DNA of 64,000 bases from Minisyncoccota bacterium. GTDB taxonomy: Bacteria > Patescibacteriota > Microgenomatia > UBA1400 > UBA12028. Positions 51,001 through 54,000 of this stretch are shown here, in pieces. The stretch spans positions 194,649 through 258,648 of the forward strand of contig JACRHV010000004.1 in the NCBI GenBank assembly GCA_016211945.1, given 5' to 3'. The position numbers were made by a program. Each line of letters begins with the position of its first letter. The stretch's first letter is position 1.

Positions 51001-54000
51001 GAAACATTAAGCTTATTTCAGTTAATGAAGGTGACCTGACTGAAGGCACGAGTCTCATTCCTAACATTTTTGCCAGCGTTGCCCAATGGGAAAGCGAAGT
51101 GAACAGCCAACGCACCAGAGATGCCCTGATGCAGAAGTTCCGAGAAGGCTGGCAACCTACCCCTCCGCCTATCGGCTACCGAAGCGTGGGTGGTGACAGG
51201 GAACGTAAGACTTGTGAGCCTGATCCGTATGAAGCACCAATCATTAAGCAACTTTTTGAAATGTACGCCACTGGCAACTACTCAATCTTTGAGATGCAAA
51301 GATGGCTAGTTGAGCAAAACATAACTTCACGAACCGGCACGCCTCTTGGTCACAGCGTAATCGATACCATTTTGAATAACCCCTTTTACCACGGCATCAT
51401 CCGCTGGCATGGAGAATCAAAAAAAGGATTACATCAACCCATTATCACAAAAGAATTATTTGAAACCTGTAAATATGTGTTAGCCAAAAATCGAGACTTC
51501 CTGATGCGAAGGCGAACCCACCAATTCCTTCTAAGAGGTTTTATCTACTGCTCCGAATGCGGTCAACGTTACACCGCCGAATGGCACAAGCACGTTAAGT
51601 TTAAGAAGCGTGGCGGTAAAATCGGCTACTACCACTGCCCTAAACTTGATCGTAACGGCTGTCCTGCCCCATACATAGACGTTGAAGAACTTGAAAAACA
51701 AGTCCAAGAAACCTTGAACTCCATCGAATTTAGCCAAGAATTTATTGATGCTGTCTCCCAAAAAGCCAGGGACTACCTCAACAATAGCCGAGAGAGAGCC
51801 GCATCTGATCTTCAAGGCTGCATAAACCAAAAAACTGCCTTTGAATTGAAACGTAACAAGCTTGAGGATGCCTTACTAGAGGGAACCATCGAACGTGATG
51901 TTTTCAAGCGTAAGCATGAAGAAATCCAATCCCAACTCAACTTCATCCAAGAACGCATGCAAGATATTGAAAATAGAAGCCGTATAGATATGGATGTCCT
52001 TGATGAGGTGTTAGCCTTTACTCGCAATGTAGGCAAAACATACACAGATGCACCATTCTTCCTAAAACGACACTACCTACGCTTTTTCTTTGATCGACTA
52101 ATGGTGAAAAATAAACAAATTGTGGAGATCAACTACCCACCGATTATCGCATCACTACAAGCACTTCGTGTGGTTATAATAAGCGAACGAATGCTCCCCG
52201 ACGAGGATTCGGACCTCGAACCTTGAAGTTACACATTCTCAATACGTTTCCGCATCGTGTGGACTATCTCTTCATCCGCATAACATTCTTTCAAATGTTA
52301 AACGGAGCAGGGCGCTCGTGGAGAGTATTGGTTGAGTCCTCACTCCTAGTCTCTGCACCCACTTGGCTACTTTCATCTCATTCACCAAGCTTGGCTCAAG
52401 ATTACCACGCTTATTTTTATAAGCAGAGGCTTCCTTGAATTCACCCTGTGTTTCCATTCTTCATTACTGAAGAAGGCTGCAGCATTCTACAGCTTCCTGC
52501 TCTACCATTGAGCTATCGGGGATCGTTTATTAAAGAACAGGGTATTTTAACATGCAAAACATATCCGGAGAAGTGATAAAAACAGAAATTTTACTCTAAA
52601 TAATCCTGCAACATCTTTCGCTTGCTTGGGTGTTTCAGCTTGCGCAACGCCTTCGCTTCAATCTGGCGGATACGCTCTCTAGTCACGCCAAACTTTTTGC
52701 CCACCTCTTCCAATGTCATCGGCCTTGCACCATTCAGTCCAAACCGCATCTTCAACACCTTGGACTCGCGATCGGATAAACTCGATAATACTTCCTCAAT
52801 GTTCTCCTTCAACAACCGTTTACTGGTTGCGTCATACGGCGAAGTTTGTGTCTCATCCGCAATAAAATCGCCTAAATAGGAATCATTGTCATCACCAATT
52901 GGCGTCTCCAACGATGTGGTCTTTTGTGAAATTTTCAAGATCTCGCGGACACGGTCTGCGTCCATGCCACCCATCTCATCCGCAACCTCTTGCGCATCCG
53001 GCTCTCTGCCCAAATCCTGCATCAACTTCCGTGAAATGCGCATCAACTTATTGATGGTTTCAACCATGTGGACCGGAATACGAATCGTGCGAGCCTGGTC
53101 TGCAATGGCACGCGTGATAGCCTGCCGAATCCACCATGTTGCATAAGTGGAGAACTTAAATCCTTTAGTCCAGTCGTATTTTTCTACAGCACGAATCAAC
53201 CCTTTATTGCCTTCTTGGATTAAGTCCAAGAAAGTCATACCACGGCCAATGTATTTTTTCGCAATGGAAACAACAAGACGCAGGTTTGCATTGATCAGCC
53301 TTTTCTTGGCATCGGGATCGCCTTGATCATTGCGCTGAGCAAGATCAATTTCTTCCTCACGAGTGAGCAGTGGAATGCGGCCAATTTCACGCAAGTACAT
53401 GCGAACCGGATCAGCAACCGATTTATCCTCTAAAGATGACAGCGACTCCAACTCCTTTTCCAGATCTGAAACGAGCGTGGCATCCTGCTTCATCTCCTCC
53501 TCGGCAACGTTTTCAAACACGTCAACGCCTGTGGCAAACAGTTTGTCGTAGAGTTTATCGAGGTCTGCAATGTAGTTTTCCGGATACACGAATACATTCA
53601 GGATCTCCTCCTGCGTAATGTATCCTTGCGCTTTTGCGCGCTTTGTGAGGTCTTCGATCTGCTGTTTTTGGGACGGGGAAAGTGGCATGTGCGAAGTGTA
53701 CCAGATGAGAGGCGGTTACGCAACAAAGGGTATGTGCAATGTTTTAGCTTTTTTGAGCTATGCTCAACCGAACAAATTCTTTCTGTAGTTTCTCGAGATT
53801 TTGCTGATCTTCCTCGGTTTGTTCGCTCTTTTTCTCGAGTAAATCCATCTCGTCTGCTATCTGCTTTAAATGGAGAGTGAGTCGCTCCTGCTTGTACAAC
53901 GCTAAAGTCTGCGTCCATTCTTTCTCGAGGTGATCCTCAATTTCTTGATCGCGTTCAAACTCTTGCTCAAGATATGCGTCAGAAAGCACTTGTTGAAGTT

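What the first reader, a model, noticed from the sequence alone, without database searches (positions are those of the whole stretch)
52194..52522. tRNA (probably Asn-GUU) split by a 257-nt group I intron in the anticodon loop
Exon 1 lies on the minus strand at 52489..52522. It reads UCCCCGA-UA-GCUC-AAUGGUA-GAGC-A-GGAAG-CUGU, i.e. the acceptor 5' strand, D-arm, anticodon-stem 5' strand and the first four loop nucleotides. Exon 2 lies 257 nt downstream on the same strand at 52194..52231 and carries the rest of the tRNA. It reads UAA-CUUCA-AGGUU-CGAGG-UCCGAAU-CCUCG-UCGGGGA-G. The acceptor 3' strand is a perfect 7-bp complement of exon 1, and the discriminator is G73.

The intervening sequence has group I intron hallmarks. 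There is an R-like GCAGAGACUA and an S-like AAGAGAUAGUCC, which can form P7 (GACUA/UAGUC). There is a perfect 6-bp P8 hairpin, AACAUU-ugaaag-AAUGUU. P4 candidates are UCAAG/CUUGA. The internal guide GCAGC pairs with the exon end GCUGU, giving a U.G wobble at the 5' splice site, and the last intron nucleotide is G.

Splicing after U35 gives the loop CUGUUAA, anticodon GUU. U1-A72 and G73 also fit tRNA-Asn. An alternative junction after U33 would give UGU, i.e. Thr.

Group I introns in bacterial tRNAs are mainly known from Leu(UAA), fMet, Ile(CAU) and Arg(CCU), so an Asn or Thr host would be unusual. The T-loop also has C55 instead of the near-universal U55.
Basis: partly seen in the sequence, partly recalled or inferred. 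Interest (0 to 1): 0.75.

Follow-up and report, generated by a model that had tools for sequence, protein, structure and literature searches.

The report
Self-splicing intron inside a tRNA-Asn gene

Summary
Rfam's group I model hits window 52240..52499 (-) at 81 bits (threshold 50). ARAGORN in intron mode calls tRNA-Asn(GUU) with a 257-nt intron after position 35. A P1-P9 fold drawn on the window sequence is 87.7% paired across 19 homologues, against 36-44% for slid controls. The U.G pair at the 5' splice site and the terminal G are each present in 19/19.

The Asn (35/36) junction is right and the Thr (33/34) alternative is wrong:
- U35, not U33, forms the wobble pair.
- In two relatives the 33/34 junction would give the anticodon AGU.
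- In an intron-plus/intron-less pair with identical exons, only 35/36 reproduces the intron-less allele.

The host is Patescibacteria, class Microgenomatia. The claim that an Asn host is unusual is out of date. Williams (2020) catalogued the class, and Nakagawa et al. (mSystems, 2026) found it to be the commonest tRNA intron in Patescibacteria and showed accurate self-splicing of a homologue in vitro.

C55 is real. It recurs independently in related tRNA-Asn genes, so it is not evidence of decay.

Side observation: a large clade of serine integrases sits against the tRNA-Asn 3' end in 9 of 9 loci examined.

The parts
52194..52522 (-). Complete interrupted tRNA-Asn(GUU) gene (72-nt mature tRNA without CCA, plus 257-nt intron)
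   Evidence: ARAGORN -i: tRNA-Asn(gtt) i(35,257). Exons are 71/72 identical to the tRNA-Asn of metagenomic loci L004 and L010 and 68/72 identical to the published Microgenomatia GCA_016700135.1 tRNA-Asn.
52489..52522 (-). Exon 1: acceptor 5' strand, D arm, anticodon-stem 5' strand, loop C32 U33 G34 U35
   Evidence: Sequence. U35 at 52489 is the -1 U of the 5' splice site.
52232..52488 (-). Group I intron, 257 nt, no homing-endonuclease gene
   Evidence: RF00028 81 bits. Profile of published Asn introns E 8.7e-38. The 61-aa and 71-aa ORFs inside it have no Pfam match.
52194..52231 (-). Exon 2: U36 A37 A38, anticodon-stem 3' strand, variable loop, T arm, acceptor 3' strand, G73
   Evidence: Sequence. 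All 26 compared tRNA-Asn end ...A72 G73.
52476..52493 (-). P1: exon GCUGU plus intron AG paired with the guide CUGCAGC; U35.G wobble marks the 5' splice site
   Evidence: cmscan alignment. U.G 19/19, U33-A 19/19, and the intron-side pairs covary.
52457..52474 (-). P2, 7 bp, with GUAA (GNRA) loop
   Evidence: All 7 pairs show compensatory changes, 96% paired. Loop G and A are invariant.
52442..52448 (-). P3 5' strand CAGGGUG
   Evidence: Pairs with 52308..52314; 99% paired, 2 pairs covary.
52308..52314 (-). P3 3' strand CGCCCUG
52396..52438 (-). P4-P5 domain (P4 UCAAGG/UCUUGA; P5 with an AAAA-capped extension)
   Evidence: P4 is 96-100% paired, with 5 of 6 pairs showing a change on both sides. 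The window carries a private compensatory G-C to A-U change at 52435/52399.
52357..52395 (-). P6/P6a
   Evidence: Basal G.U and C-G pairs 19/19. P6a covaries in 5 of 6 pairs.
52347..52353 (-). P7 5' strand G-(A bulge)-GACUA, the presumed guanosine-binding helix
   Evidence: Pairs with 52261..52266; 100% paired in 19 sequences, one pair covaries. Assignment of the G-binding pair is by analogy with Tetrahymena and Azoarcus (own knowledge).
52261..52266 (-). P7 3' strand UAGUCC
52316..52346 (-). Insert between P7 and P3' (P7.1-like hairpin GGAG...CUCC with a UGAGG..CCAAUA loop)
   Evidence: Absent from the Rfam consensus (30-nt insertion). The same motif is in published tRNA-Asn introns labelled IA1/IA2. 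The stem covaries but is only 68% paired in the MAFFT alignment.
52276..52305 (-).
   Evidence: Fold. The base pairs are conserved. The tip is lineage-specific, so it is little tested.
52240..52257 (-). P9, 7 bp, with GAAA loop
   Evidence: 6 of 7 pairs covary, 81% paired.
52232..52232 (-). Terminal G (omega G); the 3' splice site lies between 52232 and 52231
   Evidence: Invariant in 19/19 aligned introns. All 12 metagenomic and genomic relatives have G before TAAC.
52212..52212 (-). C55 in the T-loop (UCCGAAU)
   Evidence: 25 of 25 other tRNA-Asn in the first comparison set have U55. C55 is seen again in DNA in L016, L019 and L020 and inferred from five recombinase tails, 'DSD' instead of 'DSN'.
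52544..52552 (-). Extended -10-like TGTTAAAAT, 21 nt upstream of the tRNA 5' end (inferred promoter)
   Evidence: TGNTATAAT-like motifs lie at a similar distance upstream of the tRNA in most homologous loci. The simple consensus scan reported no promoter on this strand.
50664..52226 (+). Neighbour, not part of the intron: large serine recombinase gene whose last 33 nt overlap the tRNA 3' end on the other strand
   Evidence: Pfam Resolvase + Recombinase + Zn_ribbon_recom. Same arrangement in 8 other loci.

Best explanation
This is the tRNA-Asn(GUU) gene of a Patescibacteria (Microgenomatia / 'Candidatus Pacebacteria') bacterium, interrupted between anticodon nucleotides 35 and 36 by a 257-nt self-splicing group I intron without an endonuclease gene.

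Proposed mechanism:
1. The pre-tRNA is probably transcribed from its own extended -10 promoter just downstream of rpoD (inferred).
2. The intron folds into P1-P9, with a P3/P7 pseudoknot, GNRA loops on P2 and P9, and an extra hairpin between P7 and P3' (shown by covariation).
3. The guide GCAGC pairs with the exon end GCUGU and puts U35 in a U.G wobble.
4. Free guanosine bound in P7 attacks after U35 (inferred from the family mechanism).
5. The terminal G (52232) then takes its place and the exons are ligated. This creates the loop CUGUUAA with the anticodon GUU.
6. RNase P and a CCA-adding enzyme finish the tRNA, because CCA is not encoded here (inferred).

Splicing itself was not shown for this sequence. 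It was shown in vitro for a homologue by Nakagawa et al. 2026.
For: Group I identity:
- RF00028 81 bits, full length.
- A profile of published tRNA-Asn introns gives E 8.7e-38, the only hit in the window.

Fold:
- 72 pairs are 87.7% paired over 19 sequences, against 36-44% when partners are slid.
- Covariation score is 0.37 against at most 0.10; 0 of 500 shuffles reach it.
- P7 is 100% paired, P3 99%, and all 7 P2 pairs are compensatory.

No decay:
- The window keeps all 52 columns that are invariant in the other 18 introns.
- It has a private compensatory change in P4.

Junction at 35/36:
- U35.G in 19/19 while U33 pairs with A in 19/19.
- The 33/34 junction would give AGU in L012 and L014.
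- L020 (with intron) spliced at 35/36 equals the intron-less L016 allele 73/73, and 33/34 does not.
- Nakagawa et al. sequenced the spliced product of a homologue and found 35/36.

Asn identity:
- U1-A72 and G73 as in all 26 tRNA-Asn compared.
- 94% identical to the published Microgenomatia tRNA-Asn.

Host:
- DnaG relatives are a Microgenomates group bacterium and a Collierbacteria bacterium.
- The adjacent recombinase is named 'Candidatus Pacebacteria bacterium' at NCBI.

Relatives:
- The closest genome (L002) has a 256-nt homologous intron at the same site, 89.7 bits.
- 12 metagenomic contigs carry it too.
Against: - No transcript or splicing data exist for this sequence.
- P10 pairing between the 3' exon and the guide is weak or absent by inspection.
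- C55 replaces the near-universal U55, and CCA is not encoded.
- Only 64 kb is visible, so an intron-less second tRNA-Asn elsewhere cannot be excluded.
- The window and the Logan contig L001 are 100% identical over 5161 nt, so they may not be independent confirmation of the sequence.
- The alignment used for the pair counts is a MAFFT alignment, and the structure was drawn on the window sequence. That favours the window on 'cells paired', but not on covariation.
Confidence: 0.9

Rival explanations
1. The host is tRNA-Thr(UGU), with the intron between positions 33 and 34. This is the two-base-shifted junction, which also has a U before and a G at the end of the intron.
For: - Both junctions give a 7-nt loop and a U-1/omega-G pair in the window.
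- ARAGORN calls Thr for four relatives (L006, L012, L014, L015).
- ARAGORN and tFind often make the same call on published cases.
Against: - U33 is in a Watson-Crick U-A pair in P1 in 19/19 sequences, and the wobble is at U35 in 19/19.
- The 33/34 junction gives AGU in L012 and L014.
- It fails to reproduce the intron-less allele L016 from L020.
- U1-A72 and G73 match all 26 tRNA-Asn compared.
- The spliced homologue was sequenced and was 35/36.
Confidence: 0.02
2. The locus is a decaying pseudo-tRNA or an inactive intron relic, and a functional intron-less tRNA-Asn lies elsewhere in the genome.
For: - C55 in the T-loop, against U55 in 25/25 of the first comparison set.
- No encoded CCA.
- A mobile island abuts the gene.
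- Only 64 kb of the genome is visible.
Against: - All 52 invariant intron positions are kept, and there is a private compensatory pair in P4.
- The acceptor, D, anticodon and T stems are intact.
- Apart from C55, the exons are identical to L004 and L010.
- C55 recurs in at least four other, otherwise intact tRNA-Asn genes, and the recombinases next to them are not each other's closest relatives.
- Nakagawa et al. report that having both an intron-containing and an intron-less copy of the same anticodon in one genome is rare.
Confidence: 0.05
3. The gene is a chimera. The last ~33 nt of exon 2 (T-loop with C55, acceptor 3' strand) were supplied by the attP of the adjacent serine-recombinase island when it integrated into the tRNA, as tyrosine-integrase islands do.
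For: - The recombinase ORF reads 33 nt into the tRNA.
- The same geometry occurs in 9 of 9 loci.
- The encoded CCA seen in L004 and L010 is replaced by CAT in the window.
- Every C55 case found lies next to such a recombinase.
Against: - The tRNA-derived tail follows the host allele, not the recombinase. P0086 and P0102 are 94% identical but have tails LPRLDSDQ and LPREDSNF. P0082 and P0086 are only 62% identical but sit on identical tRNA exons with the same tail.
- Sequences of related loci diverge only after ...GGAGC, i.e. past the discriminator.
- No displaced tRNA 3' fragment exists in the window, L012 or L016-L018.
- The C55 sample is biased, because most cases were found through recombinases.
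Confidence: 0.07

Closest known systems
Group I introns at position 35/36 of tRNA-Asn(GUU) in Patescibacteria (Nakagawa et al., mSystems 2026, PMC13011429; 'Asn.4Ug' of Williams 2020, bioRxiv 10.1101/2020.01.27.920355)
   Same: - Same host tRNA, same insertion site, same phylum and class.
- Same U.G / omega-G boundaries and the same Asn/Thr annotation ambiguity.
- Length 257 nt, which is the mean the paper reports.
- No endonuclease gene, like most members.
- Sequence homology: 63% identity over aligned columns to the intron spliced in vitro (GCA_016700035.1).
- Exons 94% identical to the published Microgenomatia member GCA_016700135.1.
   Different: - This exact intron is not among the published sequences held here. 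Its nearest relative is L002 at 74%.
- Its P7-P3' insert is of the 'GAGUGAGG...CCAAUA' type, seen in Saccharimonadia and in the Cyanobacteriota, Nitrospirota and Bipolaricaulota members. It is not the GGUGAGUACACC type of the published Microgenomatia member.
- The tRNA has C55 and no encoded CCA.
Classical bacterial tRNA group I introns, subgroup IC3: Leu(UAA) 34/35, fMet 33/34, Ile2(CAU) and Arg(CCU) 36/37 (Anabaena and Azoarcus ribozymes)
   Same: - Anticodon-loop location and compact size of about 200-250 nt.
- P1 built from anticodon-loop nucleotides.
- Shared core motifs: GAGCCAAGC in P6, AGAGACUA and AGAUAGUC in P7.
- GNRA loops on P2 and P9.
   Different: - Different insertion site (35/36) and host tRNA.
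- A 30-nt insert between P7 and P3' that IC3 introns lack.
- Nakagawa et al. place 25 of 28 introns at 35/36 in subgroup IA, and none of the Patescibacteria tRNA introns in IC.
HNH-endonuclease-bearing tRNA-Asn 35/36 introns of Patescibacteria (four in Nakagawa et al.; L003 here)
   Same: Same site, same host tRNA and homologous ribozyme core.
   Different: - The window's intron has no endonuclease ORF.
- L003's 520-nt intron carries a 106-aa ORF with a weak HNH match, E 9e-4, below Pfam's cut-off.

Membership tests
Group I intron (Rfam RF00028) | Covariance-model score at or above the curated gathering score | tested here: met
   81 bits against 50, E 5.2e-19, model positions 1-253 of 253.
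Group I intron (Rfam RF00028) | P1 helix formed by the 5' exon end and an internal guide, with a U.G wobble at the splice site | tested here: met
   GCUGU/GCAGC with U35.G. The wobble is present in 19/19 homologues and the intron-side P1 pairs covary.
Group I intron (Rfam RF00028) | Conserved core P3-P4-P6-P7-P8 with the P3/P7 pseudoknot | tested here: met
   P3 99%, P4 96-100%, P6 base 100% and P7 100% paired. Overall 87.7% against 36-44% for slid controls.
Group I intron (Rfam RF00028) | Terminal guanosine (omega G) before the 3' splice site | tested here: met
   G at 52232; invariant column in 19/19.
Group I intron (Rfam RF00028) | Guanosine-dependent self-splicing | not testable with these tools
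   Shown in vitro only for homologues: GCA_016700035.1 Asn and GCA_001029755.1 Asp (PMC13011429).
tRNA-Asn(GUU) 35/36 intron class (Asn.4Ug) | Host is tRNA-Asn: U1-A72, G73, and anticodon GUU after splicing | tested here: met
   ARAGORN Asn(gtt). All 26 compared genes share A72 and G73. 94% identity to the published Microgenomatia tRNA-Asn.
tRNA-Asn(GUU) 35/36 intron class (Asn.4Ug) | Insertion between nucleotides 35 and 36 | tested here: met
   Wobble at U35. The 33/34 junction gives AGU in L012 and L014. Only 35/36 reproduces the intron-less allele in the L016/L020 pair.
tRNA-Asn(GUU) 35/36 intron class (Asn.4Ug) | Sequence homology to published members | tested here: met
   nhmmer profile of 14 published introns: E 8.7e-38, 124 bits, covering 52233..52488.
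tRNA-Asn(GUU) 35/36 intron class (Asn.4Ug) | Subgroup IA architecture (extra P7.1/P7.2 between P7 and P3') | tested here: inconclusive
   A 30-nt insert lies at that place, with a 4-bp stem that covaries but is only 68% paired in the alignment. The same motif is in members labelled IA1/IA2. The subgroup covariance models were not available.
Classical IC3 tRNA introns (Leu/fMet/Ile2/Arg) | Insertion at 33/34, 34/35 or 36/37 in those four tRNAs | tested here: not met
   Site 35/36 in tRNA-Asn.
Mobile (homing) group I intron | Intron-encoded homing endonuclease | tested here: not met
   The only ORFs in the intron (61 aa and 71 aa) have no Pfam match. At 257 nt it is below the roughly 500 nt at which such genes are found.

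The most novel reading that the evidence does not exclude
The intron-bearing tRNA-Asn gene is also the chromosomal attachment site of a large, Patescibacteria-wide clade of large serine integrases. Their genes end by reading into the tRNA 3' end, and they deliver defence-gene islands there.

The literature held here says use of a tRNA gene by a serine integrase was unknown in 2014 (PMC4383910). In 2020 it was rare and needed experimental proof (PMC7192596). A recurrent C55 T-loop in these tRNAs would also mean that this lineage tolerates loss of the near-universal U55.
Probability: 0.5. Interest if true: 0.45.

Novelty: new member of a known kind. Interest (0 to 1): 0.22.

Why it matters
For the finding itself, it matters little beyond annotation. 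Default tRNA finders miss this gene, so a genome like this would wrongly be scored as lacking tRNA-Asn. That is exactly the point made by Nakagawa et al. 2026.

The instance does add comparative material:
- Twelve metagenomic and several genomic homologues.
- An intron-plus/intron-less allele pair that fixes the junction without an experiment.
- Evidence that several structural variants of the intron occupy the same site within one class.

The side observations may matter more:
- A serine-integrase clade is tied to tRNA-Asn in 9 of 9 loci. If confirmed, it would be a clear case of serine integrases targeting a tRNA gene.
- The repeated U55-to-C55 change is an oddity for tRNA biology.

Tried and rejected
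Searches that found nothing:
- BLAST of the tRNA plus intron against phage and plasmid records.
- Viral-contig scans for the tRNA/intron pattern, for the recombinase and for the tRNA 3' end.

Search for a displaced tRNA 3' fragment or att repeats that would mark the island ends:
- Nothing found in the window.
- Nothing found in L012, L006 or L016-L018.
- A 14/16 match at window 38233..38248 stops before the acceptor stem and is at chance level.

Ideas rejected:
- That C55 is a sequencing error or a private mutation. It recurs in independent samples.
- That C55 came in with the island. The tail follows the host allele, not the recombinase.
- That C55-linked recombinases form a clade. They do not.

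Not attempted or not informative:
- The simple promoter scan saw nothing on the tRNA strand. The extended -10 is proposed from comparison only.
- I did not build my own covariance model, because the length would probably have exceeded the calibration limit and Rfam plus nhmmer already answered the question.
- I could not classify the subgroup (IA or IC) with subgroup models. The part of the paper's Table S5 that would list the Patescibacteria entries was cut in the stored copy.
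Full report

Yes. Joining 52489..52522 to 52194..52231 gives a 72-nt sequence that ARAGORN folds as a canonical tRNA-Asn(GUU). It has a 7-bp acceptor stem, U1-A72 and G73. Run on the unspliced region with introns allowed, ARAGORN calls tRNA-Asn(gtt) with a 257-nt intron after position 35, at the same bounds. Default ARAGORN finds no tRNA in the whole window.

Rfam's group I model matches 52240..52499 (-) over its full length at 81 bits (gathering score 50, E 5e-19). It is the only Rfam hit in the 64 kb. The region folds 4.4 standard deviations better than shuffles.

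**2. What is it, and who carries it?**

DnaG, encoded two genes upstream, has its closest relatives in 'Microgenomates group bacterium GW2011_GWC1_46_15' (60% identity, L002) and a Candidatus Collierbacteria MAG (45%, L003). The adjacent recombinase is an exact match to an NCBI protein from a 'Candidatus Pacebacteria bacterium' MAG. The host is therefore Patescibacteria, class Microgenomatia.

The gene order dnaG-rpoD-tRNA-Asn is shared with L002 and L018. L002 carries a 256-nt homologous intron at the same site (RF00028 89.7 bits). L003 carries a 520-nt version with a 106-aa ORF that weakly matches HNH. A metagenome scan for the exon-1/guide junction gave 12 more loci.

**3. Structure**

I wrote an explicit P1-P9 model on the window sequence, with P7 as a pseudoknot and a P7.1-like hairpin. 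I then counted it on a 19-sequence alignment made of the window, L002, nine metagenomic loci and eight published introns.

- 87.7% of cells are paired, against 36-44% when the 3' partners are slid by 1-3 columns.
- The covariation score is 0.37 against at most 0.10. No shuffle out of 500 reaches any measure.
- The U.G wobble at the 5' splice site and the terminal G are each present in 19/19.
- P7 is 100% paired and P3 99%.
- All seven P2 pairs, five of the six P4 pairs, five of six in P6a and six of seven in P9 show changes on both sides.
- The loops of P2 (GUAA) and P9 (GAAA) are GNRA throughout.

The window's intron keeps all 52 columns that are invariant in the other 18 sequences. Two of its four departures from the near-consensus are the two sides of one P4 pair, G-C to A-U (52435/52399). 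That is what an intron under selection for its fold looks like, not a relic.

P10 is weak by inspection.

**4. Which junction?**

The sequence allows two junctions: after U35 (Asn, GUU) or after U33 (Thr, UGU). Four lines of evidence favour 35/36.

- In P1 the wobble is at U35 in 19/19, while U33 is Watson-Crick paired with A in 19/19.
- In L012 and L014 the two bases before TAAC are AG, so 33/34 would give AGU while 35/36 still gives GUU.
- L016 (no intron) and L020 (221-nt intron) have identical exons. Removing the L020 intron at 35/36 reproduces L016 73/73, and 33/34 does not.
- Nakagawa et al. sequenced the spliced product of a homologue and found 35/36.

U1-A72 and G73 are shared by all 26 tRNA-Asn genes compared.

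**5. What is already known?**

- Williams (2020 preprint) raised the number of classes from 4 to 21.
- Nakagawa et al. (mSystems, January 2026) report 15 tRNA-Asn(GUU) 35/36 introns in 95 complete Patescibacteria genomes.
- They also report 28 introns at 35/36 among 4,934 complete bacterial genomes. Of these, 19 are in Patescibacteria; the rest are in Cyanobacteriota, Nitrospirota, Bacillota_A, Bipolaricaulota and Pseudomonadota.
- They show accurate self-splicing in vitro, with an omega-G mutant control, and they describe the same Asn/Thr mis-annotation.

Their Table S3 holds a Microgenomatia tRNA-Asn whose exons are 68/72 identical to ours. A profile built only from 14 of their introns finds our intron at E 8.7e-38.

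They place 25 of 28 introns at 35/36 in subgroup IA. Ours has a 30-nt insert between P7 and P3', where IA introns carry P7.1/P7.2. It shares its motif with members they label IA1/IA2. I could not run subgroup models, so I leave the subgroup as probable IA.

**6. C55**

The T-loop is UCCGAAU. In my first comparison set, 25 of 25 other tRNA-Asn genes have U55. L004 and L010 have exons identical to ours except for this base. It is nevertheless not an error or a sign of decay.

- The same change is present in DNA in L016, L019 and L020, which come from different samples.
- It can be read from five recombinase C-terminal tails ('DSD' instead of 'DSN', AAC to GAC on the other strand), against 36 'DSN' and 2 'DLN' tails.
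- The five recombinases are not each other's closest relatives, so the change arose several times.

Why this lineage tolerates C55 is unexplained.

**7. The neighbour**

A 520-aa large serine recombinase gene (50664..52226, +) reads 33 nt into the tRNA 3' end. Synteny with L002 breaks from about 23.2 kb to 52.19 kb. That stretch holds a second serine recombinase, type III restriction-modification genes, an OLD-like ATPase/nuclease and small HTH regulators. It looks like one or two integrated islands.

The same convergent overlap with tRNA-Asn is present in L003, L004, L012 and L016-L020, which makes 9 of 9 loci examined, with or without the intron. Among the 120 closest homologues, all from Patescibacteria where a source gives an organism name:

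- 90 end with a conserved VII-x(3-6)-L[P/R].
- 43 continue as LPxxDS[N/D]xxP, the translation of the reverse complement of a tRNA acceptor strand and T arm.

The tail follows the host tRNA allele rather than the recombinase, and related loci diverge right after ...GGAGC. So the crossover is probably at or just past the discriminator, and the tRNA, including C55, is native. The window's loss of the encoded CCA fits this.

I found no displaced tRNA fragment and no free element. This remains an inference.

[quoted passage not shown] In 2020, 14 of 297 serine-integrase elements were in t(m)RNA genes and 'experimental proof will be required'.

**8. Verdict**

The finding is real and was read correctly, including the junction. 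It is a new member of a kind that has been catalogued since 2020 and experimentally validated since January 2026, in the very class where it is commonest. Interest for the intron itself is low. The integrase/tRNA-Asn association and the recurrent C55 are the parts worth a further look.

Noticed in passing
window 50664..52226 (+) with 52194..52226; also L003 17195..18259, L004 88..444, L012, L016-L020: Large serine recombinase genes converge on tRNA-Asn(GUU) and read 12-46 nt into its 3' end, always in the same frame, in 9 of 9 loci examined. 90 of the 120 closest homologues share the VII-x-L[P/R] ending, and 43 carry a tail translated from the tRNA's reverse complement. This suggests a Patescibacteria-wide serine-integrase clade that uses tRNA-Asn as its attachment site. 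The held literature calls such use unreported or unproven (PMC4383910, PMC7192596).
   Followed up: partly
window ~23200..52190: About 29 kb next to the tRNA has no synteny with the closest genome (L002) and looks like one or two integrated islands. It holds two large serine recombinases (39316..40965, 50664..52226), a type III R-M pair (mod 45627..47183, res 43306..45630), an AAA_15/OLD-TOPRIM protein (41456..43309), and HTH_3 and MerR/HTH_17 regulators (48320..48779). Island ends were not found. Islands at the same site in L016-L019 also carry restriction-modification or other defence-type genes.
   Followed up: partly
window 52212 (-); L016 11489..11564; L019 3987..4060; L020 3991..4285: U55-to-C55 in the tRNA-Asn T-loop recurs in at least five independent lineages: four seen in DNA and one more inferred from a recombinase tail ('DSD' against 36 'DSN'). 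The linked recombinases are not a clade. Position 55 is near-universally U in tRNAs, so tolerance here is unexplained.
   Followed up: partly
L016 11489..11564 and L020 3991..4285: Two contigs carry tRNA-Asn genes with identical exons, one without an intron and one with a 221-nt intron at 35/36. This is a natural presence/absence polymorphism. It shows intron gain or precise loss among close relatives although no endonuclease gene is present.
   Followed up: yes
L003 16647..17240 (ORF 16712..17032): The Collierbacteria tRNA-Asn has a 520-nt intron at the same site with a 106-aa ORF that matches HNH weakly (E 9e-4, below Pfam's cut-off). RF00028 does not reach its gathering score on this intron, so Rfam alone would miss it.
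   Followed up: partly
alignment A1: L004, L005, L007, L010 and GCA_016700135 versus window, L002, L006 versus L011, L012, L014, L015: Within Microgenomatia the same site in near-identical tRNA-Asn exons holds at least three intron architectures. One has a P7.1 of the GAGUGAGG..CCAAUA type. One has GGUGAGUACACC plus a second hairpin. One has no insert and a different P3. L004 and L010 have exons 71/72 identical to the window, but their introns are only 61-63% identical to it.
   Followed up: no
This is the two-base mis-annotation described by Nakagawa et al.
   Followed up: yes
window 52544..52552 (-) and the equivalent upstream positions in L002-L015: A TGNTA(T/A)AAT extended -10-like motif lies roughly 20-35 nt upstream of the tRNA-Asn 5' end in most loci. 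This suggests the tRNA has its own promoter rather than being read through from rpoD.
   Followed up: no
window 52496/52224 region (G27 and A43 of the tRNA): The top pair of the anticodon stem is a G.A mismatch (GGAAG/CUUCA). It is conserved in all Microgenomatia relatives retrieved, so it is a lineage feature, not damage.
   Followed up: no
L002 15499..15530: The 30 nt after the L002 tRNA-Asn (ATAGTATAGTTAATATAACCA) resemble the recombinase-end sequence after the window's tRNA (ATTCGTTCGCTTATTATAACCA), although L002 has no recombinase within 6 kb. It may be a scar of a lost island, or chance.
   Followed up: no
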